Shown: positions 1,591 through 36,694 of the stretch, piece after piece
Layout: the number at the start of each line of letters is the position of its first letter
Position numbering within the stretch: position 1 is the stretch's first letter
Source: Naegleria gruberi
Taxonomy: Eukaryota
DNA: 64,000 bases
Assembly (NCBI GenBank): GCA_000004985.1
Contig: GG738869.1
Reading direction: 5' to 3' (one strand)
The notes under the pieces: generated by a model
What the model saw: the letters and a program-made list of their open reading frames with translations, nothing else
Told to the model about the DNA's origin: nothing
Database searches by the model: none
Translations under genes and position numbers: made by a program

Positions 1591-3300
1591 TTAATAATCT
1601 TCTACGACTGCAGAACTAAAAACTGATTTCTTAGATTTGTTGTTACTCTTCTTTGAGGAGGATTTCAAGTCTGCATACGAACTTTCAAAGAGTTCTTCTT
1701 CATCATCGAAGGAACGATGAATTGGTTCAGCATTTGGGACAGCAGTCTTTCTGAGAACTGGAGTTTCAAATTTGATATTACTAAAGTCATCTTCTTCCTC
1801 ATCGTCATCAGACATTTCCAATAGACTTGGATCATCCACTTGAATGGCTTCATCATCGATTAATTCATCATTTTCTGGTGATTTAATCTTGAGTGGAGGT
1901 GAGATGAATCTAACAGATGGAAGTGCCTCTCTTGTCTTTATGGCAGGCTGTTGTTGTTGTGTGTTGGATTGTGTTTGAGAATTTGTTGAGGATTTAAAAG
2001 TTGGAGGAGCATCACAATCGTCCTCTTCAATATTTGTCGTAGCAAGTAGAGTGTGAAGAGATTTAATACTCTTTGATGAAACATCTTCCTTATCCAATTC
2101 TTCCAAACCATCAGTGAGTTTTTGAGATTTAAGTTTCTTTAAACGTTTGGCAAGTAACATGTTTTCTTCTTCCAATCTTTCAACTTCTTTCTTTTTTCTT
2201 GTCAATTGGTCTCTCATATCTTCCAATAATTTTTCATATTTAACTTCAGTTCCAATTAACTTTTCATTCAAATCATCAATCTTCTTCTTTAACATGATAA
2301 TAGTTTCATGATCAGCAGAATCATGTGAATGACTTGTTGATTTTAATGAACTCTTAAAATCATCATCTTTTGACAACTCAATACTAATACGTTTCTCTCT
2401 GGTAACAACTGTTTTAGAGACAGGTTGTGGTTTAACTTGATTTTCCATTGACTTTTTCATATCCCTCTCCATTTCACGTTGTTCTTTTTGAAGATCTAAA
2501 ACCATTTGTTGTCTCATTTGTTTGAGTTCTCTTTTAATTTTATCCTCTTCTATTAATTTAAACTTTTCAACTTGTTGTTTAATTAAATCGAGTTGTTCTT
2601 GTTTATATTGTTTCAATTCCTTATCAATTTCCATTTTAGATGATGGGGTAGTTTGTTCTGTTTTTTCCTCAACTGGTGATTTGTTAATAGAAGAAACTGG
2701 TGAGGTAGCTTTTGATGATGAAGCAACTGGTGTTTCAACTTTTTCATTTGATTTAATAGAACTGATACTAAATGTTTTCCCAAATGTTACTGAATCTGGA
2801 TTAATAGTCAAGAGTGGACCTTTGTATTGTTTTTGGGATGCATAATCAGACAAGTCAACTAGACCTCTCAAAATTCCAGCAATAATTGGTGATTTTTCAT
2901 CAAAGGTAGCACATAATTTGTGGAAATCCTTTGAATTAAATGTTGATAGTTCACTGTTGTTTGTCAATAATAATTTCTTTTTGTATTTTAATTATTATTA
3001 ACTAACATAATTGTTATCTTGAAAACTTACAATTTCCTTTAGGAAGGTTTCACAATTTTCTTGTTCCATAAATTCCATTCCTCTCGGATTCTTGTTGAAC
3101 ATTACGAAACGTCCTTTCAATTTTGTGATTAATTTACAAAGAGCAACACCATCTTTGAATGAAGAGAAAAATGTAGAGATTGGAGTAGGAGATTCCAAGT
3201 TAATAGACACTTCTTCTGATTTGTTTGTTTCGTTTATCCAATCACGAAGTGCAATTAGTGTTGGTGATGACTTTAAACAATCATCAGATAATTTAGACAT
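1591..3300 (-). CDS. Calponin-homology (CH) domain protein with a long C-terminal coiled-coil. Two exons: 3031..3300 and 1591..2976, with a 54-nt intron at 2977..3030.
   Basis: Exon 1 translates to MSKLSDD...FKDGVALCKLITKLKG..., which carries the CH-domain signature. The donor is GAAATT|gtaagt and the acceptor is ...aaaaag|AAATTATTATTG, which keeps the frame into the 458-aa ORF listed at 1591..2967 (whose 'M' is a TTG). The downstream part is rich in heptad-like E/K/L repeats (LKQYKQEQLDLIKQQVEKFKLIEEDKIKRELKQMRQQM). Confidence 0.7.
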
Positions 3301-3386
3301 TTTTTTTTACTGATTGGTGACGTTGATGATTTATTTGATCTTATAGATCCATTCGTTATTGTGCACTTGTTAGCTTTTTGTGTAAA

Positions 3387-4453
3387 TTATTTGTTTAATC
3401 TCAATTTATCATATTGAGAAAGTGCTTCAAAATCAAAAGTATATTTGTAAGCTCCTGAATAGTCAGAAATGAGAACAGAATTATCAATCTTTGGAGTTAA
3501 CAAAGCATTAAGATCCTTTTCTTTCAATGTACCTTGAATATTGTACTTGTCAATTGTTTGTTGAGTTAAGAACATTTTAACAATACCCCACAAAAACTTG
3601 AGAGACCATGGAGTGTTAATAACAACAATAGCAGCCAATCTTTCAACATAATAAGTACCCTTTTAAGAGTGTTTGAGTATTTTCCAATAATTTAAAAAAT
3701 ACTTACAAGTTCAATAAACATATCCTTGGTTGATTTGATCATATTAGCACTCAATGATGAATCAGTAAGATCAACAATCCAAGTAGTTTGATAAACATTT
3801 TGTGGCATTCTTCTACTGCAAAGTTCATACAACCAAACAAAGAATCTGAATTTCATTTGTTTGCTTTCTTCCTTTTCATTGTCCATCTATTAAATTATTC
3901 AAATTATTATTATTAAACTAAATTTCAATTATGTACTAACCTTATCATTTCCGAGTCTGACATAGATAACTGGGTGTCCAACCTTATCAAAACCACTATG
4001 GAAAAGACTTCCTTGTGATGCAAATTGCTTCACATCACTAATATCAATATTCCAAGGTTGATACTTCTTTCTCCATTCACAAGCTCCCTTTAAAACAGGT
4101 TCTGCTTCATCAACATTCCAATTATATCCCGATAAGAATCTATAAAGTGTCAAGTCAGAGAGGAAATATTCAGCACCGAATGTATTTTCCTTCTTATCGT
4201 GATCGTGCAAAAGTTCATTTTCATTCCATTTGGTATTAATTCTCTCTCTAAAATCGTTAATTTTCTTCTTCTTTTCATCATTTAATGTATCCAAAATTGA
4301 TGATACGGTAATATTTGGAATTTCACCAAAGAGTTTATCCTCTATACACAATAATGAATAATAATATTAATTATAAATAATTTAAAAACAAGCCGTTCGG
4401 ATCCAATACAAAATTTGCAACAACCACTTACCAAGTTCCTTCAAGCTAGCCAT
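3387..4453 (-). CDS. Sec14-like phosphatidylinositol/phosphatidylcholine transfer protein (CRAL-TRIO domain), about 291 aa. Four exons: 4432..4453, 3941..4341, 3707..3886, 3387..3659.
   Basis: The ATG at 4453 opens MASLKEL+g. The three introns are gtaagt...tatag (4342..4431), gttagt...ttaatag (3887..3940) and gtaagt...ttaaaag (3660..3706). Phases are consistent across all junctions (1, 0, 0). The spliced protein has a CRAL-TRIO N-terminal region (DTLNDEKKKKINDFRERI...LLHDHDKKEN...YFLSDLTLYRFLSGYNWNVDEA...KYQPW) and a CRAL-TRIO lipid-binding region (MPQNVYQTTWIVDLTDSSLS...YYVERLAAIVVINTPWSLKFLWGIVKMFL...). Confidence 0.75.
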
Positions 4454-4603
4454 TTTTTTCTTCTATTTTAAATAACAAGATCGATCTTGCAACTGGATGT
4501 ATTGATTGTAATATTGTGATGAAGTTTGATTCTTGACATTGAATAATGACTTGTCTCTTTGGTTTCAACAGAAAATGTTGAAGAACAATAGCAGCTTAAC
4601 CAA

Positions 4604-7438
4604 ATGCAAGTTGATACAAATTCCTCTTACAAAAAAATGTCTTTTCTCCATGCAACATCCTTTGCCTCTGTTGAAATGAAGGATGCAACGACTTGTTCCG
4701 AAAAATTTACTCTTCAAACACAAGTGGAATCCAATAGTAATGTTAAAGTACATTTATTTGAATTGGATGGTGATAATTATTTGATTGTTGCAAGAGAAAG
4801 GTGGATTGATATTTATTTATTACATGAGGAGGATAATCACTTGACAAAGGCTTGCTCAATTAAAAGTGATTTACAAATTATTGATTTTATATTTGATAAC
4901 TATAATATTTACGTATTGTGTTCCGATGGATCACTCTTACTCACAACACTATCATATCATCAAGATGCAAATATTTTCACATTTTCGTCATGGAACCAAT
5001 TAAATACTAATACTACCAATTTTCCTGTTAAATTGTTGAGATATAATGATGCAATAGTTGTGTGCTATATTGAGAATGAGATACAATTTATCAATTTATC
5101 AAATGGCAAAATATTTACTTATCAATATAATGGAGTTCATTTTGACAGTTGTGTTCTTGGTAGTTACTTTTATTTGTGTATCAATAGTACACTAGTTTAC
5201 AAAATGAAATTTAATGAGGAATATAGTTTGATTGAATCTGAGAAAATTAAATCACCATTTGATATTATATCTTTACATACAAGCGAATCTAAAATTATTG
5301 CAATTACTGCTGATTCTAGGATTATTGATATTGAAACATTAGACCAATTACTTAAGATTGAAACTGATCAATATATTTCTGACTATCATCTTTTGCAAAA
5401 AGGTTATTTATGCACTGAACATGGTGATATTTATTCGATTGATGGAAATCAAGCAAATATGCTCTATTCTAAACTTGGTGTTGACAAGATTTGCAAATCA
5501 AGTCAAGAAGCTAATTTCCTTATTGGTTATTCTTCTGTTAGTGATTTGATTTACATACCGTTAGAAGAATCAATGACTGATCTTCAACCTCGATCCCTAC
5601 TGCCAAATATTTCATATGTCATAGATTTTGATAAGAAGGGAGATGATTTTATTATTGCTACTCCAAAACGCCTCTGTAGTGTTAAGAAAGGAATGTCATG
5701 TAGAGTTACTTCTCTAACAGACGAATCTTATGATGGAATAGATAATGTTTTCACTCCAACAACAGATTTTATCATTTTGAGTTTTGTAAATCAAAGTAAG
5801 GTACTTAGAATTTCTGAAGACTCCATTGATGAATGCAATAACAATGTATTCGAATCAAGTCAGGCCACATTTTACTGTAATCAAATTCTTAATTCGTTTA
5901 TTTTACAAGTAACAGCCACTGAAATGAGATTAATGGATTTACAATTAAGTACATTGCTTTCTTCCATTAAAATTAATAGCACAGTTATTACTAGTAAGGC
6001 TAATAATATTTATGTAAGCTATGAAAATAAGATTACTAAATTTGAGGTCAGTCAAGAAGGACAAATAACTGAATCATTTTCCATTACCTTAGATAGAGAC
6101 ATATCTTCAATGAGAGCAACTGATGGTAATCATTTAATTGCCAGCACCTACTCTGGCATTATTTATTTCATTTCAGGAAATACAATTTCTAAAACTATTG
6201 ATATTAACAGTCAGCAAATTGAAACAAATATTGTGGAATCCATTTTCTATACTGGCTCACTTTTACTTCTGGGGTTACGAGATGGTCACTTATTGGTTTA
6301 CGATATTGATCAACTCATTAAAAAGTTCAAATTGGGCGATGTACCTGTACAGCTTAGAGAAACATTTGATGATATAATTATTGCTGTTTCTAACAACTGC
6401 TATTATATTTCTGTAGATTCTTCTATGAATCTCAACATTTCTAATTTATTAGTCAACGATCACATCCTTTCAGTTCAAAACTTTAATGTTACAGGTTATG
6501 AAAACTCCCTGTTGTGTCTTTCTAGTGATAGTAAGATTAAGGTGATCAGTATTGAAACTACCAATTTCCAACCAATGATTAAAGAAATTTATTCCAATGA
6601 AGATTGTCAAAGAGTTCATGTAAACGAAGAGGATAATTCCATAATTTATGTATGCAACAATTATAGTAGTTTGAGATATATTGACGATAGCAAGGAGACA
6701 TTAACACTCTACACATTCCCTCCTTCAGAAAAAATCTACTCAATTACTTCATTTAAGGTAAAGAATGACGATTCACATGATAGTAATTTTGTCATTGTTG
6801 GTACAAAATACACTCGCCATCACAATAATATTATCATGAATAAGGACCCAACTAGTTTATCTCATGGATTACTGCACGTACTGAAACTAGGAAAAGTATC
6901 TGATTCCTACAAATGTGAACATGTTGGATCATGCGAACTTCCTTACATGGTTTATTCTATCAAACAGTATAACAGTCAATATTTGCTTGTTGGTTACGGT
7001 GAAAGACTTGGATTATTTTATTTTGATCAAAAAGAAATGAAATTAGTTGACCAAGCTAGTGTAAGACATTTTGTTAATAGTATTGATATTTGTGATAATT
7101 TGATATGTATTACAGATAGATTTGATGGACTACTTTTCTACATTATTCAAGAGGGTAAATTTTATTATTTGAGTAATGTTAGCTTGAGATTAGATGCATT
7201 GAATTCATCTACATGCAGATTTATCAACTCCAAACGATTAGCAACAATTGATAGAAGCCACCAATTAATTATTTGGAGAATTAATAACATCAATACATCA
7301 ACACATACTATTTCACTTTCCAAAGAAAAATCATTTGATACAAAAGAACTTGCTCTCAAAGTTATTCCAATTTCTAATCATCAACTTTTCTACATTACTT
7401 TGAATGGTAGTATTAATTATTTAAATATAGAGGAATAA
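4604..7438 (+). CDS. Large (944 aa) predicted beta-propeller protein. Its C-terminal region resembles the CPSF-A/DDB1 family, but the family assignment is uncertain.
   Basis: Single long open frame starting at the ATG at 4604. It contains repeated beta-strand-like blocks throughout. The C-terminal segment LVGYGERLGLFYFDQKEMKLVDQASVRHF...DNLICITDRFDGLLFY is reminiscent of the CPSF_A region of DDB1/CPSF160/SF3b130-type proteins. It is shorter than canonical members (>1100 aa). Confidence 0.5.
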   Translation: MQVDTNSSYKKMSFLHATSFASVEMKDATTCSEKFTLQTQVESNSNVKVHLFELDGDNYLIVARERWIDIYLLHEEDNHLTKACSIKSDLQIIDFIFDNYNIYVLCSDGSLLLTTLSYHQDANIFTFSSWNQLNTNTTNFPVKLLRYNDAIVVCYIENEIQFINLSNGKIFTYQYNGVHFDSCVLGSYFYLCINSTLVYKMKFNEEYSLIESEKIKSPFDIISLHTSESKIIAITADSRIIDIETLDQLLKIETDQYISDYHLLQKGYLCTEHGDIYSIDGNQANMLYSKLGVDKICKSSQEANFLIGYSSVSDLIYIPLEESMTDLQPRSLLPNISYVIDFDKKGDDFIIATPKRLCSVKKGMSCRVTSLTDESYDGIDNVFTPTTDFIILSFVNQSKVLRISEDSIDECNNNVFESSQATFYCNQILNSFILQVTATEMRLMDLQLSTLLSSIKINSTVITSKANNIYVSYENKITKFEVSQEGQITESFSITLDRDISSMRATDGNHLIASTYSGIIYFISGNTISKTIDINSQQIETNIVESIFYTGSLLLLGLRDGHLLVYDIDQLIKKFKLGDVPVQLRETFDDIIIAVSNNCYYISVDSSMNLNISNLLVNDHILSVQNFNVTGYENSLLCLSSDSKIKVISIETTNFQPMIKEIYSNEDCQRVHVNEEDNSIIYVCNNYSSLRYIDDSKETLTLYTFPPSEKIYSITSFKVKNDDSHDSNFVIVGTKYTRHHNNIIMNKDPTSLSHGLLHVLKLGKVSDSYKCEHVGSCELPYMVYSIKQYNSQYLLVGYGERLGLFYFDQKEMKLVDQASVRHFVNSIDICDNLICITDRFDGLLFYIIQEGKFYYLSNVSLRLDALNSSTCRFINSKRLATIDRSHQLIIWRINNINTSTHTISLSKEKSFDTKELALKVIPISNHQLFYITLNGSINYLNIEE

Positions 7439-7439
7439 A

Positions 7440-8180
7440 TTATTTGGTAATCCACCAATTTTCATCTTCATCATTCAAAGTTGTTGGAATATGTGAATAT
7501 TTCATATCTTCACTTGAAATGAAAGCCAATTCACTCATATAGCCTCCAATAGCTTTTTCATCTCTAAAAGATTCTTGTTCTCTTCTATTAGTTGGAATAT
7601 CTCGCAGTGGATGATTAAAGTGACAAGCATGTGTACCAGAGTGACCTGGTTTTAATACACACGGTGCCTCACAAAATCTACAATCACACAAATGTCCACA
7701 TTTCAAAATTGGTTCACCTTCAACATGTCCAAATATACATTCATGTTTATGAGGATGACCAAGAGGTAATTTACAAATATGACCATCTTCACAAACCCAA
7801 GAACATAGTAATTGTACTTGAGTTGTTGGTCTGAAAAAGAAATTCATTATTGGAATATTTTGTAATTGATTATCTCTTAATCTGGGAAATAAAAAAGCAA
7901 CCAATGGATCAATAAATAAATTTGAAATAACTGTTTGATATACTCTTGTAATGGTTGGTTTTGTTTGTTGTACTAATTGAGTCCGAAGTGAATAAGTATC
8001 GCTCAATCTTTGAGATCTTAAAGAAGAAATTAAATTATTATTTGATAAATTATCATTAGAATCATCATCCATTAAATTATCATCCAAAGAAAACGATGGT
8101 GGTTGAACAAGTAAAACTCCTCCAGGTGCATTTCCGACAGTTGGGCTTGTTGTAGATTTTTTATCACTCAAAGCCTTCAT
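7440..8180 (-). CDS. Hypothetical Cys/His-rich, probably metal-binding, protein of 246 aa.
   Basis: ATG at 8180 (MKALSDKKSTT...). The C-terminal half has dense Cys/His spacing (CSWVCEDGHICKLPLGHPHKHECIFGHVEGEPILKCGHLCDCRFCEAPCVLKPGHSGTHACHFNHP). I recognise no family for it. The stop lies 1 bp from the stop of the convergent 4604..7438 gene. Confidence 0.5.
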   Translation of the reverse strand: MKALSDKKSTTSPTVGNAPGGVLLVQPPSFSLDDNLMDDDSNDNLSNNNLISSLRSQRLSDTYSLRTQLVQQTKPTITRVYQTVISNLFIDPLVAFLFPRLRDNQLQNIPIMNFFFRPTTQVQLLCSWVCEDGHICKLPLGHPHKHECIFGHVEGEPILKCGHLCDCRFCEAPCVLKPGHSGTHACHFNHPLRDIPTNRREQESFRDEKAIGGYMSELAFISSEDMKYSHIPTTLNDEDENWWITK

Positions 8181-14436: not shown

Positions 14437-15447
14437 ATGCTCCACAACCAACAAGAAGAAAATTCTTCATCAAATACCAACAACACTGTTTCATCATCGG
14501 ATGAAAATATTCAAGTGAATCGTGAGAATATTGACAATTCACCACTCTTAGGAATGGTTTATTCTCACTTTAAAATTAGCCCATTTACAAATCCAACACT
14601 CTCACACATTGCCAAGTATGATGACAAACCTAAAACACCATGCCCACACTGTACAAAGAATAGAAAGTACTTTTGTTATGATTGTTGTACACCAATGATT
14701 GAAAATCCACCAACCATCTCTAAATTACCACTCCACTGTGTCATTATCCAACACAAACAAGAAAGAAAGGGTAAATCAACAGCCATTCATGCTAAAGTAG
14801 TTGCTCATTCAAGTGCTGATTTATATGAATTCCCAGATATTCCATCATTCCTTACACCACAAAATTGTGTTCTTGTCTATCCTTCAAAGACTGCTAGATT
14901 GGTTTCTCAATTATTTAAAAAGCCTACCGATGATAACAATACAACAACAACATCTTCATCATCAACCTCATCGGAAACAGCACCAACAATTAATGTTTCA
15001 ACATTGAAATATGCTGTATTCATTGATTCTACTTGGCCACAAGCGAAACAAATCTATCGTAATGAATTTGTTAAGAGTTTGCCATGTGTCATTATTGAAG
15101 AAAAGGAAACACTCTTTTGGAGATATCAAAGAGAAGGACAAAAGTTCCTGTCGACCATTGAAGCTATCTTTTACTTTTACAGAGAATATCTTCAAGCCTT
15201 AAATGAATATGGAGATGAAGAAACAAAACAATCCACTCCAAGTGATGTACCTTTGGAAAATTTACTCTACTATTATATTCATCAATATTGTTTGATACAG
15301 AGTTACTATGCAAAGGATTTAAATAAGAAGATTACAACAAAGAAGGCCGATAATCAGAATTACATCAAGTATGATTTGATGGGAGTTGCTGATGAAAATA
15401 ATTCTTCTAATTTAGAACCTCCACTCAAGAAATTAAAGGAAGATTAA
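14437..15447 (+). CDS. DTW-domain protein (DTWD-type tRNA-uridine aminocarboxypropyltransferase family), about 336 aa.
   Basis: The ORF track begins at 14332 with a TTG. The first in-frame ATG is at 14437 (MLHNQQEEN...). It contains the N-terminal Cys cluster CPHCTKNRKYFCYDCCTPM and the DTW-domain motif FIDSTWPQAKQIYRNEFVKSLPCVII. An additional upstream exon is possible: there is a candidate acceptor ...caatcaacag at ~14400. Confidence 0.65.
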   Translation: MLHNQQEENSSSNTNNTVSSSDENIQVNRENIDNSPLLGMVYSHFKISPFTNPTLSHIAKYDDKPKTPCPHCTKNRKYFCYDCCTPMIENPPTISKLPLHCVIIQHKQERKGKSTAIHAKVVAHSSADLYEFPDIPSFLTPQNCVLVYPSKTARLVSQLFKKPTDDNNTTTTSSSSTSSETAPTINVSTLKYAVFIDSTWPQAKQIYRNEFVKSLPCVIIEEKETLFWRYQREGQKFLSTIEAIFYFYREYLQALNEYGDEETKQSTPSDVPLENLLYYYIHQYCLIQSYYAKDLNKKITTKKADNQNYIKYDLMGVADENNSSNLEPPLKKLKED

Positions 15448-15631: not shown

Positions 15632-16648
15632 ATGCAAAGCGTGGAAATTCAATTAAAAAAGGCTGATCGTACCTATTTCTCAGGTGAAAAAGTTAGAGGA
15701 GTTGTAAAAATTAATGCCAAACAAGGTGGATTTAAATCATCGGCAATTAATTTAAAGGTAGAAGGAACAGTATCATTTCAATATAGCGGAACTAGTAATG
15801 TGAATATATTTGATGTTGTGATGAATTCATTTAAACCAATTAAATTAATTGATTTACAAATACAATTGGATAAAGGAGGTACTAAATTCCCAAGTGGAAA
15901 CACTGATATTCCTTTTGAATTTGTTTTACAACCTTTAAATAAGAAAATACCACTCTATGAAACTTATGCTGGTGTCTATTTATCATGCCGTTATAAGATT
16001 TCATGTGAAGTCAAGATGGGTCTTTTCAGTAAGGATCAAAACACATCTGTTGACTTTACAGTTTATAATAGAGGACAAGGTGTTGCAATTGCTAGAAATT
16101 TATCATTATTAACATCAAATGATTCACAACAAATTGAAGCTCTTCCAGAAGAAACAAATATTGTAATTCCTAAACAAATTAAGCAATTTCTTCTCACTCC
16201 TCAAACATTACAAAATGTTATACGTCAAAATGTAACTGGTATTCCAGAATATGAAATTAGAGGATTTGTTTCTGATACTATTTGTGATATTACTGACCCA
16301 TTGGATGGAGAAATTGAAATTGTAAAATCATCTTCCAGAATTAAATCTCTCGAAGTTCAATTAGTCAGAGTTGAAAGTTGCAGTGTTGAAGGAGGAAACA
16401 TGATAAAGGAAGCAACAGAAATTCAAAATATTCAAATGGGAGAAGGAAATGTTTGTAAAGGGTTGAAGATTCCAATCTACATGATTTTCCCAAGATTATT
16501 CACATGTCCTACTTTAATTGGTGCTAATTTCAGAATTCAATTCGAAATTAACATTATTGTAATTTTTGCTGACGGATATCAAATTACAGAGAATATTCCA
16601 ATCATTCTTTATCGTAAACATGACGATAACAAGAAATACATTATTTAA
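15632..16648 (+). CDS. VPS26C / DSCR3 homolog (retriever complex arrestin-fold subunit), 338 aa.
   Basis: It aligns along its whole length with DSCR3. The N-terminus MQSVEIQLKKADRTYFSGEKVRGVV...NLKVEGTV matches DSCR3 'IKIKRANKVYHAGEVLSGVV...SLTMEGTV'. The stretch KFPSGNTDIPFEF is shared, as is the C-terminal block ATEIQNIQMGEGNVCKGLKIPIYMIFPRLFTCPTLIGANFRIQFEINIIV...ITENIPIILYR. It is a single exon. Confidence 0.8.
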   Translation: MQSVEIQLKKADRTYFSGEKVRGVVKINAKQGGFKSSAINLKVEGTVSFQYSGTSNVNIFDVVMNSFKPIKLIDLQIQLDKGGTKFPSGNTDIPFEFVLQPLNKKIPLYETYAGVYLSCRYKISCEVKMGLFSKDQNTSVDFTVYNRGQGVAIARNLSLLTSNDSQQIEALPEETNIVIPKQIKQFLLTPQTLQNVIRQNVTGIPEYEIRGFVSDTICDITDPLDGEIEIVKSSSRIKSLEVQLVRVESCSVEGGNMIKEATEIQNIQMGEGNVCKGLKIPIYMIFPRLFTCPTLIGANFRIQFEINIIVIFADGYQITENIPIILYRKHDDNKKYII

Positions 16649-16659
16649 ATAAAAAACAT

Positions 16660-18036
16660 TTAGAGACTTGACTTTTTAATGACTCCCTTTTGAATACCAA
16701 CTTCAATGAAAGCATCAATAGCTCTTTGAACTTGTTCTGTGGTATGTCCAGCAGATAATTGAACTCTGATACGAGCCATATCTCTTGGAACAACTGGGAA
16801 TGAGAAACCAATAACGTAAATTCCTCTCTTGAGCATTTCATCAGCGAATTCACTTGCCAAACGAGCATCTCTCAACATGACAGGACAGATTGGACAAGAA
16901 TCATCACCAAGAATTTCAAAACCAGCCTTCTTCATGCCTTCTCTGAAAAGCTTAGTATTATCCATAAGTCTATCTCTCAAAGTAGTATCCTTTGAAATCA
17001 TTTCAAAGACCTTCAATGAAGCACCAACAACAGCTGGAGCCAAAGAGTTAGAGAAGAGGTATGGACGAGCACGTTGTCTCAAAAGATCAATAACTTCCTT
17101 CTTACCAGTAGTGTAACCACCAGTTGCACCACCCAAAGCTTTACCCAAAGTTGAGTTAATAATATCAATCTTTCCTTCAAGTCCAAAATGTTCTGGAGTA
17201 CCACGACCAGTCTTACCAAAGCTTAACAAAATTGTGTGTGAAATTTTCAATCTCAATAAAAATACTTACAATCCAGTAGCGTGACATTCATCAATGAAAA
17301 TAATTGCCTTGTACTTTTCAGCGAGAGCAACAATTTCATGAAGTGGAGCAACATCACCATCCATACTGAAAACACCATCGGTGGCGATCAATCTAGTACG
17401 AGCATCTTGAGTTTCTTGTAAAATCTTTTCCAATTCAGCCATATCCATATGCTTATATCTGTAACGACGAGCCTTACACAAACGAATACCATCAATAATG
17501 GAAGCATGATTCAAAGCATCACTGATAACAGCATCTTCTTCAGTGAGTAAACATTCAAACAAACCACCATTGGCATCAAAACAACTTGGATATAAAATTG
17601 TGTCTTCAGTTCCGTGGAATTCAGAAATCTTTTGTTCTAATTCCTTGTGAATATCTTGAGTACCACAAATAAATCTGACAGAACTCAATCCACAACCATG
17701 AGTATCCAATGCCTTCTTAGCTGCTTTGATAAGATCTGGATGATCACTCAATCCCAAATAATTGTTAGCACAGAAATTCAAAACTTCAGTGGTACCAGTT
17801 TGAGATGTTGTAATTTTAGAGGCTTGTGGTGAAGTAATAATACGTTCCTTCTTGTATGTTCCGGCTTCTTTAATATCATTTAATTGTTTTTCAATAATTG
17901 GTTTAAGATGTTCATTATAAATAGCATTATTATTATTTGTAGTTGATGATGAAAATTGTCTCATGATGATTGATGATGTTGGGAGGTTATTCTTTCTGAT
18001 GAGTGAGTGGATAATGGAAGCGGAGACTCTTTGCAT
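16660..18036 (-). CDS. 2-amino-3-ketobutyrate CoA ligase / glycine C-acetyltransferase (PLP-dependent, alpha-oxoamine synthase family), about 442 aa with a probable mitochondrial presequence. Two exons: 17270..18036 and 16660..17221.
   Basis: ATG at 18036 ([31 protein letters not shown]...). Exon 1 ends ...[11 protein letters not shown] (GGATT|gtaagt), and the 48-nt intron 17222..17269 ends ttgttaag. Exon 2 continues [14 protein letters not shown]...[17 protein letters not shown]..., which contains the PLP-lysine region and matches KBL/GCAT. Confidence 0.85.
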
Positions 18037-30338: not shown

Positions 30339-30778
30339 ATGCCTATTATTACAACATCTTCATTGTTACATTCATCATCGGGTAGCAGTCATCATTCATC
30401 CAATACAACAGCAACATCACCCACTGGCAGTAGTGGTAATATAGGTAGTTTAACCTCCTCCTCAACTACGACAACAACACTCCTCGAACAACCACCTTCA
30501 TTTCAACCAAGTGAAGTTAGCCTTGTCAAATTAAAATTAAAATCACAAAGAGCAAAAAAGAAAGTAGCCTTTGATAATACAGTTGAAGATAACGAATTTA
30601 AACCAATGAGAACATCTAAAAGTAAGTTTAGATTGTTTTTACTAATTTAATTAAACAACAATTAGAATGTTGTATTTTCCATCGTAAGAAGAGGTATGAT
30701 GAAAGTGATACAGAAAGTGATAGTAGTAGTGATGAAGAAGAAGATTCTAATTGTCCACAATGTAATAGTAATGAATAA
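30339..30778 (+). CDS. Protein phosphatase 1 regulatory subunit 11 (inhibitor-3) / Ypi1-like protein, about 131 aa. Two exons: 30339..30621 and 30666..30778.
   Basis: Exon 1 is an S/T-rich N-terminus followed by KKKVAFDNTVEDNEFKPMRTSK (an RVxF-like KKVAF PP1-docking motif). The donor is AAAA|gtaagt. The 44-nt intron has a TACTAAT branch-like motif and ends caattag. Exon 2 reads CCIFHRKKRYDESDTESDSSSDEEEDSNCPQCNSNE*, which is the CC[IV][YF]..(K/P)R...ESSSDS...acidic signature of PPP1R11/YPI1. Confidence 0.65.
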
Positions 30779-30779
30779 T

Positions 30780-32657
30780 TTATTGTTTCTTCTTTTTAGA
30801 AGGAGAAAAGTATTCTAACAAATTACTAGATTTTGATTTGGGTGTTGTTTTCTTATTAGGTGATGAATTATTCTTATTTTCAAAATGTGAATTAACATGA
30901 ACATCTATTAAACTTGGAAAACACTCCTTACCACATATTATACATTTAACTTTTCCACTTGTAATACTATTGTCATCATTAGATGATGATTGATTATTAT
31001 TACTAATAGTATTTTGAATAGTACTATTACTATTAGCACTAATAGTAATATTATTATTGGATGATGATTGATTGGAAATTAAACTTGTTGTAATATTACT
31101 ATTATTATTATTACTAGTCAATTTGGAAATATTAGGAATCTTTTCAGATAAATATCTTTGATTGTCATCATTAGCAGAAGATGATAATGTTACATTATCG
31201 GAATGACAACTGGTTTCCTTGCTTGTTTGATTAAATACTAGTAATGTATTATTGTTATTACTACTACCATTCTTATTATTACTATTATTACTATTACTAC
31301 CACTACTACTATTGGATGAATGTGTTGTTGAAATATTTAAAGATGGATAAATAAAATTAGTATAACTTAATGAAATCCATCTTAATTGTAATTTTGAATC
31401 TTTTAATAAATTTTTATCATTTACTTGTTCATATGAATCATAAATTGATGAATATTTGAGAATGGATGTTAGTTTTTTACTCATTCTCAAGACTCTAATT
31501 GAAATTTCAATTAATTGTTCAACATTTAAATATTTTTCCTTTTTTGTTTGAAATATTTTCCAAAGTTGTGAAATTGTTAAAGTTGATTGTTCTTCCTTTT
31601 CATCATCAAATCTAAATTTAAAAATTAAATTTAATGGAATTCTTGAATATTTTTGATTATTTACAAATTTTTCATATAAAAGTCCATCTTCATGAATTCT
31701 TTCAAATAATTCCATTGCTATATATGAAATTACTTTCCTAATTGAGGTATGTAAATTTGAAATATTAATGGGAGTTAAAGACATTGAAGTTGAAACTGTT
31801 TTTGGAGGTGAAGATTCTTTTACAATTTCTTCATCAATTCCATTTAATAATTTATAAACTTGTTCAAATAAATTTTCATTTTTTAATAAATTTTTAAAAT
31901 CATTTTTAGAAATTCTTGTTAATAAATCCAATACATTTTCAATTTTATAATCATTTTCTAATATATTTATAAAATCTTTTAATAAATTTGATATTTTTGG
32001 ACATTTTTTTAAAGTCAAAGTTTTAAAAATTTCATTTAAATTTCTTCCTAAAAAAATTGATTGTTTAAATGGTTTAAATTTACTTGATAAAATTTTAGAT
32101 AAAAATTTACAATGTGAAATTCCAGCAGACAATTCAAAATTTAATTTATCTTTAATACTATTCCTAATATAGAGTGTTAAATAATTTGTAAAATATAATT
32201 TCCACATGTAATCATTTAATTTTCTATTTTTTAATAATAATTCCCAATTAATTAAATTACCATTAACATCTAAACATGTATCTAAATTTTTATTTAAATA
32301 ATTTATATTACTAAATATATTATTAATTAATTCAAAATTAAATTTTTTAATATTTGAAATAAATTTAATTAAATTATTAATAGATTTAGTAACATCAATA
32401 TAAATTTCATCAATTGATGATTTTTCAATAATAAAATTCCAATATTTATAATAATTATCCATTTCCAAATTTAAATGTTTTAAAATTAAATTAAAAAATT
32501 CAAAAATAATTAAATTTTTAATTTCAGAAATAAAAATTTGATAAGAAAATTCTCTATAAAATTTATAAGTAACTTTAGTTGTATTTGGAAACATTGGAAC
32601 ATGAATTAATTTTAAATTTGGACATTTTTGTATTGCTATATTTGGTTTATCATGTTT
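30780..32657 (-). CDS. DNA polymerase eta (Y-family; Rad30/XPV-type), 5'-truncated by the assembly gap at 32658..32707.
   Basis: The minus-strand frame is open from the gap edge. It reads ...NIAIQKCPNLKLIHVP..(about 50 aa)..SIDEIYIDVT (Y-family motif III with the catalytic D/E). It continues to SAGISHCKFLSKILSSKFKPFKQSIF (compare pol eta SAGISHNKMLAKLACGLNKPNRQT). The C-terminus has a UBZ-type zinc finger, KCIICGKECFPSLIDVHVNSH, and a PIP-box-like end, SSNLLEYFSPSKKKKQ. The first catalytic motif (DxD) is missing and presumably lies in or beyond the gap. Confidence 0.75.
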   Translation of the reverse strand, partial: KHDKPNIAIQKCPNLKLIHVPMFPNTTKVTYKFYREFSYQIFISEIKNLIIFEFFNLILKHLNLEMDNYYKYWNFIIEKSSIDEIYIDVTKSINNLIKFISNIKKFNFELINNIFSNINYLNKNLDTCLDVNGNLINWELLLKNRKLNDYMWKLYFTNYLTLYIRNSIKDKLNFELSAGISHCKFLSKILSSKFKPFKQSIFLGRNLNEIFKTLTLKKCPKISNLLKDFINILENDYKIENVLDLLTRISKNDFKNLLKNENLFEQVYKLLNGIDEEIVKESSPPKTVSTSMSLTPINISNLHTSIRKVISYIAMELFERIHEDGLLYEKFVNNQKYSRIPLNLIFKFRFDDEKEEQSTLTISQLWKIFQTKKEKYLNVEQLIEISIRVLRMSKKLTSILKYSSIYDSYEQVNDKNLLKDSKLQLRWISLSYTNFIYPSLNISTTHSSNSSSGSNSNNSNNKNGSSNNNNTLLVFNQTSKETSCHSDNVTLSSSANDDNQRYLSEKIPNISKLTSNNNNSNITTSLISNQSSSNNNITISANSNSTIQNTISNNNQSSSNDDNSITSGKVKCIICGKECFPSLIDVHVNSHFENKNNSSPNKKTTPKSKSSNLLEYFSPSKKKKQ

Positions 32658-32707
32658 NNNNNNNNNNNNNNNNNNNNNNNNNNNNNNNNNNNNNNNNNNN
32701 NNNNNNN
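32658..32707. other. Assembly gap of 50 N.
   Basis: Run of N. It interrupts the 5' part of the DNA polymerase eta gene. Confidence 0.99.
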
Positions 32708-33754: not shown

Positions 33755-35854
33755 ATGCAATCATTTCAATCTTCACCACCATCCGAACCTCTTCCCTCCT
33801 GCTCTTCAACCACTTGCCAATCCTGCAGAAAACTCCACAGAAAATGTGATAAACTTCTTCCGTCCTGTTCCTACTGCACAAAAAGAGGCTACGTTTGTTG
33901 TTATGAAAAAACCAGAGATGAACAATCGGTTGTAATCCGAAAAAAGAATGAAAACCCTTCGTTAAATTATCATCTCCATCATGACAATGATACAACTCTT
34001 GTAAATAATAGTAATCATCATAATAATAATAATAATTTAGTATCATCTGGATTTGATAGTAGTAGTAATAATATGATGATGGTGATGAATAATAGTAATA
34101 ATAATTTTAATGTAAATAATAATAAGCAAAATAGGTATAGATCGGTTCCTTATCAATCGACTGCTGGTTCTTCGTTGATATTTTCCTCTCAAAGAAATGA
34201 AAACAATTCTATGAATTATTCAATGATGATGAATGATTATCAACAGCAGCAGCAATCAGCAGCTTTTGTAAATATTGCAAATATGTTTAATNNNNNNNNN
34301 NNNNNNNNNNNNNNNNNNNNNNNNNNNNNNNNNNNNNNNNNNNNNNNNNNNNNNNNNNNNNNNNNNNNNNNNNNNNNNNNNNNNNNNNNNNNNNNNNNNN
34401 NNNNNNNNNNNNNNNNNNNNNNNNNNNNNNNNNNNNNNNNNNNNNNNNNNNNNNNNNNNNNNNNNNNNNNNNNNNNNNNNNNNNNNNNNNNNNNNNNNNN
34501 NNNNNNNNNNNNNNNNNNNNNNNNNNNNNNNNNNNNNNNNNNNNNNNNNNNNNNNNNNNNNNNNNNNNNNNNNNNNNNNNNNNNNNNNNNNNNNNNNNNN
34601 NNNNNNNNNNNNNNNNNNNNNNNNNNNNNNNNNNNNNNNNNNNNNNNNNNNNNNNNNNNNNNNNNNNNNNNNNNNNNNNNNNNNNNNNNNNNNNNNNNNN
34701 NNNNNNNNNNNNNNNNNNNNNNNNNNNNNNNNNNNNNNNNNNNNNNNNNNNNNNNNNNNNNNNNNNNNNNNNNNNNNNNNNNNNNNNNNNNNNNNNNNNN
34801 NNNNNNNNNNNNNNNNNNNNNNNNNNNNNNNNNNNNNNNNNNNNNNNNNNNNNNNNNNNNNNNNNNNNNNNNNNNNNNNNNNNNNNNNNNNNNNNNNNNN
34901 NNNNNNNNNNNNNNNNNNNNNNNNNNNNNNNNNNNNNNNNNNNNNNNNNNNNNNNNNNNNNNNNNNNNNNNNNNNNNNNNNNNNNNNNNNNNNNNNNNNN
35001 NNNNNNNNNNNNNNNNNNNNNNNNNNNNNNNNNNNNNNNNNNNNNNNNNNNNNNNNNNNNNNNNNNNNNNNNNNNNNNNNNNNNNNNNNNNNNNNNNNNN
35101 NNNNNNNNNNNNNNNNNNNNNNNNNNNNNNNNNNNNNNNNNNNNNNNNNNNNNNNNNNNNNNNNNNNNNNNNNNNNNNNNNNNNNNNNNNNNNNNNNNNN
35201 NNNNNNNNNNNNNNNNNNNNNNNNNNNNNNNNNNNNNNNNNNNNNNNNNNNNNNNNNNNNNNNNNNNNNNNNNNNNNNNNNNNNNNNNNNNNNNNNNNNN
35301 NNNNNNNNNNNNNNNNNNNNNNNNNNNNNNNNNNNNNNNNNNNNNNNNNNNNNNNNNNNNNNNNNNNNNNNNNNNNNNNNNNNNNNNNNNNNNNNNNNNN
35401 NNNNNNNNNNNNNNNNNNNNNNNNNNNNNNNNNNNNNNNNNNNNNNNNNNNNNNNNNGATCTATTTACAGCAGAGAAATAGTGCATCGGGAATAGAGTCA
35501 TTATTTGATTTTGGAGAGGATATCTTTTCCATAGAGTCTCTTTCCAATTCATCACCAAGCTCATCAAATTGCTCGAAAGAAAATCTAACACCACAAACCA
35601 TTTTCGATACCTATCAGTCAGATTACGCCCCACTTTTCCGAGACTTTGGTATAGATATGGAAATAGTTGATGTATTCATTGAGAATATGAGTGAACAAGA
35701 AAAATTATTTCATAATGACAAGACGAAACTAGCAGAAAAGAGAATGGAACTTGTAGAATCTTTCAAGGCAATATCTGGAAAGAAGAAGGATGTATTTGGC
35801 ATTGTAGCTTGTGAATTTTTAAAGAAACAACTTCTTTTTAATGAAAATAACTAG
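33755..35854 (+). CDS. Zn(II)2Cys6 binuclear-cluster (Gal4-type) DNA-binding protein, Asn-rich. The coding region is interrupted by the 1166-N gap (34292..35457), so length and frame continuity across the gap are unknown.
   Basis: ATG at 33755 (MQSFQSSPPSEPLPSCSSTT). It is followed by CQSCRKLHRKCDKLLPSCSYCTKRGYVCCY, which matches C-x2-C-x6-C-x6-C-x2-C-x6-C spacing. Downstream are N/M/Q-rich tracts (NNNNNN, MMMVMNN, QQQQQ). After the gap an open frame continues to a stop at 35854 (…IESLFDFGEDIFSIESLSN...KKQLLFNENN*). Confidence 0.55.
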   Translation: MQSFQSSPPSEPLPSCSSTTCQSCRKLHRKCDKLLPSCSYCTKRGYVCCYEKTRDEQSVVIRKKNENPSLNYHLHHDNDTTLVNNSNHHNNNNNLVSSGFDSSSNNMMMVMNNSNNNFNVNNNKQNRYRSVPYQSTAGSSLIFSSQRNENNSMNYSMMMNDYQQQQQSAAFVNIANMFNXXXXXXXXXXXXXXXXXXXXXXXXXXXXXXXXXXXXXXXXXXXXXXXXXXXXXXXXXXXXXXXXXXXXXXXXXXXXXXXXXXXXXXXXXXXXXXXXXXXXXXXXXXXXXXXXXXXXXXXXXXXXXXXXXXXXXXXXXXXXXXXXXXXXXXXXXXXXXXXXXXXXXXXXXXXXXXXXXXXXXXXXXXXXXXXXXXXXXXXXXXXXXXXXXXXXXXXXXXXXXXXXXXXXXXXXXXXXXXXXXXXXXXXXXXXXXXXXXXXXXXXXXXXXXXXXXXXXXXXXXXXXXXXXXXXXXXXXXXXXXXXXXXXXXXXXXXXXXXXXXXXXXXXXXXXXXXXXXXXXXXXXXXXXXXXXXXXXXXXXXXXXXXXXXXXXXXXXXXXXXXXXXXXXXIYLQQRNSASGIESLFDFGEDIFSIESLSNSSPSSSNCSKENLTPQTIFDTYQSDYAPLFRDFGIDMEIVDVFIENMSEQEKLFHNDKTKLAEKRMELVESFKAISGKKKDVFGIVACEFLKKQLLFNENN
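34292..35457. other. Assembly gap of 1166 N.
   Basis: Run of N inside the Zn2Cys6 gene. The X-only ORFs in the track (34275..35495 on the plus strand, 34287..35633 on the minus strand) are artefacts of translating N. Confidence 0.99.

Positions 35855-36064: not shown

Positions 36065-36694
<630 letters not shown>

What the first reader, a model, noticed from the sequence alone, without database searches (positions are those of the whole stretch)
7430..7445. Three convergent gene pairs with stop codons 1-11 bp apart, so 3' ends must overlap
Three convergent pairs have nearly abutting stops. The beta-propeller gene (+, stop at 7436-7438) and the Cys/His-rich gene (-, stop at 7440-7442) are 1 bp apart. 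VPS26C (+, stop 16646-16648) and KBL (-, stop 16660-16662) are 11 bp apart. PPP1R11-like (+, stop 30776-30778) and pol eta (-, stop 30780-30782) are 1 bp apart. Any 3' UTR and polyadenylation signal of one gene must therefore lie inside the coding region of its partner. This implies overlapping antisense 3' transcript ends and possible mutual regulation. Three instances in 36 kb suggests a genome-wide architectural habit rather than chance.
Basis: seen in the sequence. Interest (0 to 1): 0.5.

Follow-up and report, generated by a model that had tools for sequence, protein, structure and literature searches.

The report
Abutting convergent genes in Naegleria
In this compact amoeba genome (Naegleria gruberi), many tail-to-tail gene pairs have almost no DNA between their stop codons, so each gene's very short 3' tail must run into its neighbour; this is real and typical of the group, but it is an expected result of genome compaction, not a new kind of system.

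Summary
The stop codons lie at 7436-38(+)/7440-42(-), 16646-48(+)/16660-62(-) and 30776-78(+)/30780-82(-), giving gaps of 1, 11 and 1 bp. Orthologues support all six coding ends, so no hidden 3' intron or earlier stop separates them.

The window is Naegleria gruberi NEG-M. Only 36.7 kb is real sequence; the rest is N padding.

Tiny gaps are specific to convergent pairs. In 68 adjacent gene pairs from N. gruberi, N. fowleri, N. lovaniensis and Willaertia magna:
- Convergent gaps have a median of 45 bp, and 6 of 18 are 11 bp or less.
- Tandem gaps have a median of 154 bp and divergent gaps 321 bp; none of these 50 is below 38 bp.

Pair 1 stays convergent in four Naegleria lineages (gaps 1, 3, 0 and 77 bp).

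Published direct-RNA data for N. gruberi (PMC11529991) report an AAUAAA signal, cleavage 15-20 nt downstream, a median 3' UTR of 39 nt, and "dual-use" stop codons with 22-nt UTRs. One gene in each pair has AATAAA overlapping its stop. Its signal therefore sits at the junction, and only about 20 nt of UTR plus the cleavage site lie antisense in the partner's last codons.

3' overlap is close to unavoidable. Mutual regulation is untested. This is a new example of a known phenomenon, of low to moderate interest.

The parts
4604..7438 (+). DDB1/CPSF_A-like beta-propeller gene (944-aa ORF), the + member of pair 1. Its stop is TAA at 7436-7438.
   Evidence: PF23726 at E = 6.5e-22. It is 100% identical to the N. 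gruberi model P0122, which ends at the same residue. The C-terminus aligns without indels to orthologues in three other Naegleria lineages.
7434..7444 (.). Pair 1 junction, AATAAATTATT. It holds AATAAA (7434-7439) overlapping the + stop, one spacer base (7439), and TTA (7440-7442), which is the - stop. The reverse strand reads AATAATTTATT.
   Evidence: Sequence read. The AATAAA overlap with the stop was found. Orthologous junctions have gaps of 3 bp (N. lovaniensis L005), 0 bp (N. fowleri-like L007) and 77 bp (metagenome L009).
7440..8180 (-). Cys/His-rich 246-aa gene, the - member of pair 1. Its stop is at 7440-7442. Its last ~6 codons (7443-~7460) are predicted to be antisense to the beta-propeller gene's 3' UTR.
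   Evidence: ORF; no Pfam family. The C-terminus ...MKYSHIPTTLNDEDE(N/H)WW..K* is conserved in L005, L007 and L009.
15632..16648 (+). VPS26C-like gene, the + member of pair 2. Its stop is at 16646-16648, and AATAAA at 16648-16653 overlaps the stop by one base.
   Evidence: PF03643 at E = 8e-30. The C-terminus ...YRKHDDNKKY(I/T)I* aligns to the last residue in N. fowleri, a metagenome Naegleria and Willaertia. AATAAA position.
16649..16659 (.). The 11-bp spacer of pair 2 (ATAAAAAACAT).
   Evidence: The same pair has spacers of 24 bp in N. fowleri (L002), 55 bp in N. lovaniensis (L006) and 21 bp in a metagenome Naegleria (L008).
16660..18036 (-). 2-amino-3-ketobutyrate CoA ligase-like aminotransferase with two exons (16660-17256 and 17266-18036, approximate), the - member of pair 2. 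Its stop is at 16660-16662.
   Evidence: PF00155 on both ORFs. The C-terminus ...[15 protein letters not shown] matches the N. fowleri and metagenome orthologues up to the last few residues.
30339..30778 (+). Ypi1/PPP1R11-like gene, the + member of pair 3. Exon 1 is 30339-30621, a 44-nt GT..AG intron is 30622-30665, and exon 2 is 30666-30778. Its stop is at 30776-30778.
   Evidence: Splice model. The spliced product scores E = 1.9e-12 and 47 bits against PF07491, above the cut-off. The Willaertia orthologue has an intron at the same place.
30774..30784 (.). Pair 3 junction, AATAATTTATT on +. On the - strand it reads AATAAATTATT, the same 11-mer as at pair 1, with AATAAA (30784-30779) overlapping the pol-eta stop.
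30780..32594 (-). 3' part of a pol-eta-like Y-family polymerase gene, the - member of pair 3. Its stop is at 30780-30782. The gene continues upstream across a 50-N assembly gap at 32658-32707.
   Evidence: PF00817 (IMS) at E = 1e-7. The C-terminal zinc-finger-like CxxC...HxxxH and the ...LLEYFSPSKKKKQ* tail align with N. lovaniensis P0121 ...LFNYFSPPEKKKKK*. N gap.

Best explanation
These are ordinary protein-coding genes in the gene-dense nuclear genome of Naegleria gruberi. The DNA between convergent genes has shrunk until the two stop codons nearly touch.

This is tolerable because 3'-end formation in N. gruberi needs very little sequence. The signal is AAUAAA. It often overlaps the stop codon itself (a 'dual-use' stop), and cleavage follows 15-20 nt later.

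In each of the three pairs, one gene has such a stop-embedded AATAAA. Its predicted ~20-nt 3' UTR and cleavage site are therefore encoded antisense in the last 3-6 codons of the partner. The other gene has only AAUAAU-type variants near its stop, so it must end somewhere inside its partner's coding region.

The two mRNAs of a pair should thus be complementary over at least a few tens of nucleotides at their 3' ends. I read this overlap as a passive by-product of compaction, not a dedicated regulatory device.

Shown here: the stop positions, the gene identities, the conserved coding ends, the orientation-specific gap distribution, AATAAA at the stops, and the depletion of AATAAA in sense coding sequence.

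Inferred: the actual poly(A) sites, the length of the overlap, and the absence of a regulatory role.
For: - Stops and gaps were read directly.
- Organism: the beta-propeller ORF is 100% identical to an N. gruberi protein.
- Coding ends are conserved in orthologues.
- Convergent gaps have a median of 45.5 bp, against 154 bp for tandem and 321 bp for divergent pairs. Gaps of 11 bp or less occur in 6/18 convergent pairs and 0/50 others. The sample covers N. gruberi, N. fowleri, N. lovaniensis and Willaertia magna.
- No coding overlap was seen. The smallest gaps are 0, 1, 1, 1 and 3 bp, as expected if shrinkage stops at the stop codons.
- AATAAA overlaps the stop in 5 of 21 window genes, including one gene in each abutting pair.
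- AATAAA occurs 6 times in sense and 70 times in antisense within 25.5 kb of coding sequence, so it is a selected signal. AATAAT (65/81) and ATTAAA (69/45) are not depleted.
- Published nanopore direct-RNA data for N. gruberi report: AAUAAA as the top signal, 15-20 nt upstream of cleavage; a median 3' UTR of 39 nt; 11-13% dual-use stops with a median UTR of 22 nt; and weak downstream-element bias (PMC11529991).
- Gap size drifts between species: pair 1 has 1/3/0/77 bp and pair 2 has 11/24/55/21 bp. In N. lovaniensis, pol eta faces a different gene at 21 bp. This fits neutral shrinkage, not a fixed functional spacing.
Against: - No transcript ends were seen for these six genes. N. gruberi gene positions are not in the look-up index, and the paper's supplementary tables are not held.
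- Three of the six genes lack a canonical AATAAA within 270 nt or more downstream, so how and where they terminate is unknown.
- The gap sample is small: 68 adjacent pairs. Some are orthologous between species and so not independent.
- The tandem and divergent gaps in the window rest on ORF coordinates, not curated models.
- Pair 1 keeps a gap of 3 bp or less in three lineages despite about 45% protein identity. That could also reflect selection.
Confidence: 0.8

Rival explanations
1. The overlaps are functional. The complementary 3' ends of the two mRNAs form duplexes, or the converging polymerases interfere with each other. Either would couple the expression of the partners, as reported for closely spaced convergent genes in budding yeast. 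In Naegleria the duplexes could also feed an RNAi pathway.
For: - In yeast, 645 convergent pairs have overlapping 3' UTRs and negatively correlated expression (PMC3900390).
- In yeast, mRNA duplexes form only at short intergenic distance, and convergent orientation is preferentially conserved there (PMC6993858).
- Pair 1 keeps its orientation in four Naegleria lineages, with gaps of 0-3 bp in three of them.
- N. fowleri has candidate Dicer and Argonaute homologues (PMC13315211).
Against: - The partners have no evident functional link: a DDB1-like protein with an unknown Cys/His protein, VPS26C with KBL, and Ypi1 with pol eta.
- Pair 3 is not conserved in N. lovaniensis, and pair 2 is not convergent in Willaertia.
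- Gap lengths drift from 0 to 77 bp.
- The predicted overlaps are short, a few tens of nucleotides.
- No expression or small-RNA evidence exists.
Confidence: 0.12
2. The quasi-palindromic junction AATAA-N-TTATT is a selected, shared bidirectional module. It supplies a stop codon and a poly(A)-type hexamer to both genes at once, and this is why the gap is exactly 1 bp in pairs 1 and 3.
For: - Both 1-bp junctions are the same 11-mer (AATAAATTATT, or its reverse complement).
- All four genes end in an NAA codon, against 2 of the 17 other window genes.
- A stop followed directly by ATTATT occurs in 4 of 21 window genes (binomial p about 6e-7).
- Four of the five AATAAATTAT occurrences in the window lie at 3' ends.
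- A U-rich element downstream of AAUAAA is reported for N. gruberi (PMC11529991).
Against: - The reverse strand reads AAUAAU, which is not depleted in sense coding sequence (65 vs 81), so it is probably not a strong signal.
- Two of the four TAA-ATTATT stops (1591-93 and 15445-47) have no convergent partner, so the motif belongs to 3'-end formation in general and not to abutment.
- The orthologous pair 1 junctions in N. lovaniensis and N. fowleri lack AATAAA.
- The sample is tiny.
Confidence: 0.06
3. This is an annotation or assembly artefact. One member of each pair would really end earlier or have an unrecognised 3' intron, or the ORFs are spurious.
For: The window is a draft scaffold with N gaps. 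The official models for two of the genes differ from the ORFs elsewhere: an N-terminal truncation and a doubtful internal intron.
Against: - All six C-termini align to orthologues up to or within a few residues of the stop.
- The official N. gruberi models P0122 and P0002 use the same stops.
- An independent assembly (ENA contig L001) has the identical pair 2 junction.
- NCBI annotations of N. fowleri, N. lovaniensis and Willaertia show the same class of tiny convergent gaps.
Confidence: 0.02

Closest known systems
Convergent gene pairs with overlapping 3' UTRs (tail-to-tail cis-natural antisense pairs) in compact genomes, best studied in Saccharomyces cerevisiae (PMC3900390; PMC6993858)
   Same: Two protein-coding genes lie tail to tail, with less DNA between the stops than the two 3' UTRs need, so the mRNA 3' ends are complementary. 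Convergent orientation is conserved across related species for at least pairs 1 and 2.
   Different: The spacer here is far shorter (0-11 bp), so the UTRs lie in the partner's coding sequence and not merely in its UTR. The UTRs themselves are about 20-40 nt. No expression coupling has been shown in Naegleria.
[quoted passage not shown]
   Same: One gene in each pair (stops at 7436-38 +, 16646-48 +, 30780-82 -) has AATAAA overlapping its stop, exactly as that paper defines the feature. The published median UTR of 22 nt for such genes sets the predicted overlap.
   Different: The paper, as far as its text could be searched, does not discuss what lies downstream of such stops. Here the downstream sequence is the partner's coding region, and the partner's own stop follows after 1-11 bp.
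Overlapping transcription of adjacent genes in highly compacted eukaryotic genomes (microsporidia, nucleomorphs). This comes from my own knowledge; the source paper was seen only as a citation in the hits and was not read.
   Same: Shrinking intergenic DNA forces the transcripts of neighbouring genes to overlap.
   Different: Naegleria is free-living. From memory, and not checked here, its genome is about 41 Mb. Its tandem and divergent spacers are ordinary (medians of 154 and 321 bp in the sample). The extreme shrinkage is confined to convergent spacers.
Bidirectional termination zones between convergent yeast genes (bioRxiv 10.1101/2022.11.02.514956; title and abstract only)
   Same: A single short region would serve 3'-end formation on both strands.
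   Different: In Naegleria the 'zone' would be an 11-nt junction plus flanking coding sequence. Its use on both strands is not shown.

Membership tests
Tail-to-tail cis-natural antisense gene pairs (convergent genes with overlapping 3' UTRs) | Two genes on opposite strands with their 3' ends facing each other | tested here: met
   ORF coordinates, Pfam identities and orthologue-supported C-termini for all three pairs.
Tail-to-tail cis-natural antisense gene pairs (convergent genes with overlapping 3' UTRs) | The mature transcripts share complementary sequence at their 3' ends | not testable with these tools
   No transcript or poly(A)-site data for these genes could be reached. The overlap is inferred from gaps of 1-11 bp against published median UTRs of 22-39 nt (PMC11529991).
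Tail-to-tail cis-natural antisense gene pairs (convergent genes with overlapping 3' UTRs) | Both genes are expressed in the same cells at the same time, so the overlap can matter | not testable with these tools
Dual-use stop codon / poly(A) signal (as defined in PMC11529991) | An AAUAAA hexamer overlaps the stop codon | tested here: met
   AATAAA lies at 7434-7439 (+), 16648-16653 (+) and 30784-30779 (-), one gene per pair. The three partner genes do not have it.
Dual-use stop codon / poly(A) signal (as defined in PMC11529991) | An ultrashort 3' UTR (about 22 nt), with cleavage 15-20 nt after the hexamer | not testable with these tools
   This is published as a genome-wide median. Per-gene tables are not held.
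Dual-use stop codon / poly(A) signal (as defined in PMC11529991) | The hexamer is a functional signal in this organism | tested here: met
   AATAAA is about 10-fold depleted in sense coding sequence (6 sense vs 70 antisense in 25.5 kb). This agrees with the paper's finding of few coding-sequence instances.
Antisense overlapping coding genes (shared nucleotides between two CDSs) | The two coding sequences, stops included, share at least one nucleotide | tested here: not met
   The gaps are +1, +11 and +1 bp. The smallest gap in any related locus is 0 bp (L007), and none of the 18 convergent pairs has a negative gap.

The most novel reading that the evidence does not exclude
Near-zero convergent spacers in Naegleria could be a selected architecture and not passive shrinkage. 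The AATAA-N-TTATT junction would act as one bidirectional stop-plus-polyadenylation module. The short 3' duplexes it forces would couple the expression of the partners, possibly through the candidate Dicer/Argonaute machinery. Pair 1 would then be held at 0-3 bp across deeply diverged Naegleria species for that reason.
Probability: 0.1. Interest if true: 0.6.

Novelty: new member of a known kind. Interest (0 to 1): 0.27.

Why it matters
If the small sample holds genome-wide, about a third of convergent pairs in Naegleria have essentially no spacer, and more than half have spacers shorter than two median 3' UTRs. From memory, N. gruberi has about 15,700 genes; about a quarter of neighbouring pairs are expected to be convergent. 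That would put the affected genes in the thousands.

Three consequences follow:
- Annotation: UTR models must be allowed to overlap the neighbour's coding sequence.
- Strand-specific expression analysis: reads at gene ends are ambiguous.
- Transgene and knock-in design in N. gruberi and N. fowleri: tagging or replacing the 3' end of one gene will disrupt its partner's UTR, cleavage site or last codons.

The pairs also offer a natural test of how little sequence eukaryotic 3'-end formation needs, because the region downstream of the signal is constrained by the partner's protein sequence.

It does not reveal a new mechanism.

Tried and rejected
- Transcript evidence. Exact-protein look-ups for window genes found no N. 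gruberi records apart from one 5-kb ENA contig identical to the window. The N. fowleri hits were genomic contigs only. The supplementary 3' UTR tables of PMC11529991 are not held.
- Naegleria-specific literature on convergent genes, intergenic distances or antisense overlap. Four searches and two full-text scans found nothing relevant. A Discoba gene-order preprint says only that Heterolobosea have about 2 genes per same-strand run and yeast-like spacer ratios.
- Unbiased k-mer enrichment, comparing sense with antisense in the 50 nt after stops. It gave only weak contrasts, partly because the motifs are near-palindromic and the sample is small. I therefore treat the extended TAA-ATTATT motif as a side observation.
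- An upstream UGUA element. It is absent from the last 45 nt of the three genes with stop-embedded AATAAA, and present only near the Ypi1 and KBL ends.
- Bacterial-style ORF and terminator logic was not applied, because the sequence is eukaryotic.
- A ciliate-type genetic code, in which TAA is not a stop, was considered. I rejected it because ORFs of up to 944 aa close at TAA exactly where orthologues end.
- Coding overlap (a negative gap) was looked for and not found.
Full report
**What is in the sequence**

The three sites are as described. TAA at 7436-7438 (+) is followed one base later by TTA at 7440-7442. TAA at 16646-16648 (+) is followed after 11 bases by TTA at 16660-16662. TAA at 30776-30778 (+) is followed one base later by TTA at 30780-30782.

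Only bases 1-36694 of the window are real. The rest is N padding, and there are assembly gaps at 32658-32707 and 34292-35457.

**Organism**

The 944-aa ORF at 4604-7438 is 100% identical to a Naegleria gruberi predicted protein (P0122). The VPS26C ORF matches the N. gruberi model except for a 24-aa stretch that the model splices out. The window is therefore N. gruberi NEG-M nuclear DNA.

**Are the six coding ends real?**

The gene identities are as follows.
- 4604-7438 (+) is a DDB1/CPSF_A-type beta-propeller.
- 15632-16648 (+) is Vps26-family.
- 16660-18036 (-) is a two-exon class I/II aminotransferase (KBL-like).
- 30780-32594 (-) carries an IMS (Y-family polymerase) domain.
- 7440-8180 (-) has no Pfam family.
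- The Ypi1/PPP1R11 gene has a 44-nt GT..AG intron (30622-30665). Its spliced product passes the Pfam cut-off at 47 bits against 27.

Every C-terminus is supported by orthologues.
- The beta-propeller and its Cys/His partner align without indels to N. lovaniensis, an N. fowleri-like assembly and a metagenome Naegleria. The partner ends ...NDEDE(N/H)WW..K* in three of them.
- VPS26C ends ...YRKHDDNKKY(I/T)I* in all Naegleria, and Willaertia aligns to the last residue.
- KBL ends just after the conserved ...IEVG.QKG.IK.
- The pol-eta-like protein ends ...YFSP.KKKK.*, as does its N. lovaniensis counterpart.
- The official N. gruberi models use the same stops.

**Is it more than chance?**

I mapped the genes in the window by ORFs and Pfam. 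I then took the NCBI gene calls for syntenic or nearby loci in N. fowleri (L002), N. lovaniensis (L005, L006) and Willaertia magna (L004).

Of 68 adjacent pairs:
- The 18 convergent pairs have gaps of 1, 1, 1, 3, 8, 11, 21, 24, 36, 55, 68, 132, 139, 144, 145, 163, 210 and 210 bp, with a median of 45.5.
- The 31 tandem pairs have a median of 154 bp and a minimum of 38.
- The 19 divergent pairs have a median of 321 bp and a minimum of 49.
- Gaps of 11 bp or less occur in 6 of 18 convergent pairs and 0 of 50 others (Fisher p = 1.7e-4). Convergent against tandem gives Mann-Whitney p = 2e-4.

The window itself holds six convergent pairs, with gaps of 1, 11, 1, 132, 163 and about 210 bp. The last is provisional, because its + ORF spans an N gap.

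No coding overlap was seen. The distribution stops at 0-1 bp, as expected if spacers shrink until the stop codons collide. Willaertia has its own unrelated 1-bp pair (4967/4969 in L004). The habit therefore extends beyond Naegleria.

The caveats are a small sample, some orthologous pairs counted in more than one species, and ORF-based coordinates for the non-convergent gaps in the window.

**Conservation**

- Pair 1 is convergent in four lineages, with gaps of 1 bp (N. gruberi), 3 bp (N. lovaniensis), 0 bp (N. fowleri-like, TAATTA) and 77 bp (metagenome species).
- Pair 2 has gaps of 11, 24, 55 and 21 bp in four Naegleria lineages and is not convergent in Willaertia.
- Pair 3 is not conserved. 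In N. lovaniensis the pol-eta-like gene faces a ubiquitin hydrolase gene, again at only 21 bp.

Orientation is often kept, spacing drifts, and new neighbours also end up close. This looks like a general shrinkage pressure, not a fixed functional spacing.

**How the 3' ends can work**

A 2024 study sequenced N. gruberi mRNA directly (PMC11529991). It reports:
- AAUAAA is the top poly(A) signal and lies 15-20 nt upstream of cleavage.
- The median 3' UTR is 39 nt.
- 11-13% of stop codons overlap AAUAAA ('dual-use'), and those UTRs have a median of 22 nt.
- UGUA acts as an upstream element.
- There is only a weak U-rich downstream element.

In the window, AATAAA overlaps the stop in 5 of 21 genes, and one such gene sits in each abutting pair: 7434-7439 (+), 16648-16653 (+) and 30784-30779 (-).

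AATAAA is clearly under selection here. It occurs 6 times in sense and 70 times in antisense in 25.5 kb of coding sequence. AATAAT (65/81) and ATTAAA (69/45) show no such depletion.

For the beta-propeller, VPS26C and pol-eta genes, the signal therefore lies in their own last codon and stop. Only about 20 nt of UTR and the cleavage site lie antisense in the partner's last 3-6 codons. The predicted ends are near 7455-7460, 16670-16675 and 30758-30763.

The three partners (the Cys/His gene, KBL and Ypi1) have only AAUAAU near their stops. They have no AATAAA for 276, more than 600 and 574 nt respectively. Where they end is unknown, but it must be inside the neighbour's coding region.

The UTR must lie in the partner, but the signal need not.

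**The junction motif**

Pairs 1 and 3 share the same 11-mer, AATAAATTATT or its reverse complement AATAATTTATT. More generally:
- A stop followed directly by ATTATT occurs in 4 of 21 window genes (p about 6e-7).
- Four of the five AATAAATTAT copies in the window lie within 22 nt of a same-strand stop.

This is probably the poly(A) signal plus the U-rich downstream element reported in the paper. Because TTA follows AATAAA by zero bases, a dual-use signal of this extended form supplies a reverse-strand stop exactly one base after the forward stop. That may explain the repeated 1-bp gap.

Two of the four such stops have no convergent partner. The motif therefore belongs to 3'-end formation and not to abutment.

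**Regulation**

In budding yeast, closely spaced convergent genes form 3' mRNA duplexes and show reciprocal expression (PMC3900390, PMC6993858). N. fowleri has candidate Dicer and Argonaute genes (PMC13315211). Coupling is therefore conceivable.

Nothing here shows it, however. The partners have no evident functional link, the spacing drifts, and pair 3 is lineage-specific.

**Verdict**

It is now quantitatively grounded in published UTR lengths. The 'architectural habit' is supported by a small multi-species sample.

The phenomenon belongs to a known class: overlapping 3' ends of convergent genes in compact genomes, helped by dual-use stop codons already described for this species. I found no paper that describes the abutting convergent pairs in Naegleria themselves. 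I therefore rate it a new example of a known kind, with low to moderate interest.

Noticed in passing
window 1-36694, coding ORFs listed: AATAAA is about 10-fold depleted on the sense strand of coding sequence: 6 sense against 70 antisense in 25.5 kb. AATAAT (65/81) and ATTAAA (69/45) are not depleted. This fits selection against premature polyadenylation. It also means that antisense read-through into a gene meets an AAUAAA roughly every 360 nt.
   Followed up: partly
window stops at 1591-1593 (-), 7436-7438 (+), 15445-15447 (+), 30780-30782 (-); also 10000, 21192, 26974: An extended 3'-end motif, (A/T)TAAATTATT. The stop is followed directly by ATTATT in 4 of 21 genes (p about 6e-7), and four of the five AATAAATTAT copies in the window lie at gene 3' ends. 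It is probably the poly(A) signal plus a U-rich downstream element. It was not obvious in the N. fowleri, N. lovaniensis or Willaertia loci.
   Followed up: partly
window 15632-16648 vs protein P0002: The public N. gruberi VPS26C model (314 aa) splices out an in-frame 24-aa stretch (GVAIARNLSLLTSNDSQQIEALPE). N. fowleri and a metagenome Naegleria keep it as coding sequence, so the intron in the model is probably false.
   Followed up: partly
window 4604-7438 vs P0122; L005 9402-12226: The public N. gruberi (744 aa) and N. lovaniensis (741 aa) models of the DDB1-like gene lack about 200 N-terminal residues. These are present in the 944-aa ORF and in the 942- and 949-aa orthologues. In N. lovaniensis, a separate 168-aa 'gene' 92 bp upstream is probably that missing N-terminus.
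   Followed up: no
L004 (Willaertia magna) 3171-4967 (+) / 4969-6663 (-): An unrelated convergent pair, a WD40 gene and a transglutaminase-core gene, also has exactly 1 bp between its stops. The - gene has AATAAA overlapping its stop (GAATAAATTAA).
   Followed up: partly
L001 (ENA ERZ929261, contig k127_558317): A 5-kb contig from a sample filed as a metagenome encodes a VPS26C protein identical to the window's and has the identical pair 2 junction; one base upstream of the junction differs in the stretch compared. It could be N. gruberi or a very close relative, either contamination or presence in the sample.
   Followed up: no
window 33755-35854 (+), N gap 34292-35457: An ORF with a fungal-type Zn(2)-Cys(6) binuclear cluster domain (PF00172, E = 5.7e-6) runs across a 1,166-N assembly gap. 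The 699-aa 'ORF' is partly an artefact of N codons, and the link between its 3' end and the N-terminal domain is unproven.
   Followed up: no
window 36065-36694 (-): The C-terminal half of a tubulin gene (PF03953, E = 1.6e-47) runs off the end of the real sequence. Its stop is also embedded in AATAAA (CAATAAATCC).
   Followed up: no
window 7440-8180 (-) and orthologues in L005, L007, L009: The Cys/His-rich 246-aa protein has no Pfam family. Its C-terminal 40 residues are nearly invariant across Naegleria lineages whose neighbouring DDB1-like proteins share only 41-46% identity. It is a conserved protein of unknown function.
   Followed up: no
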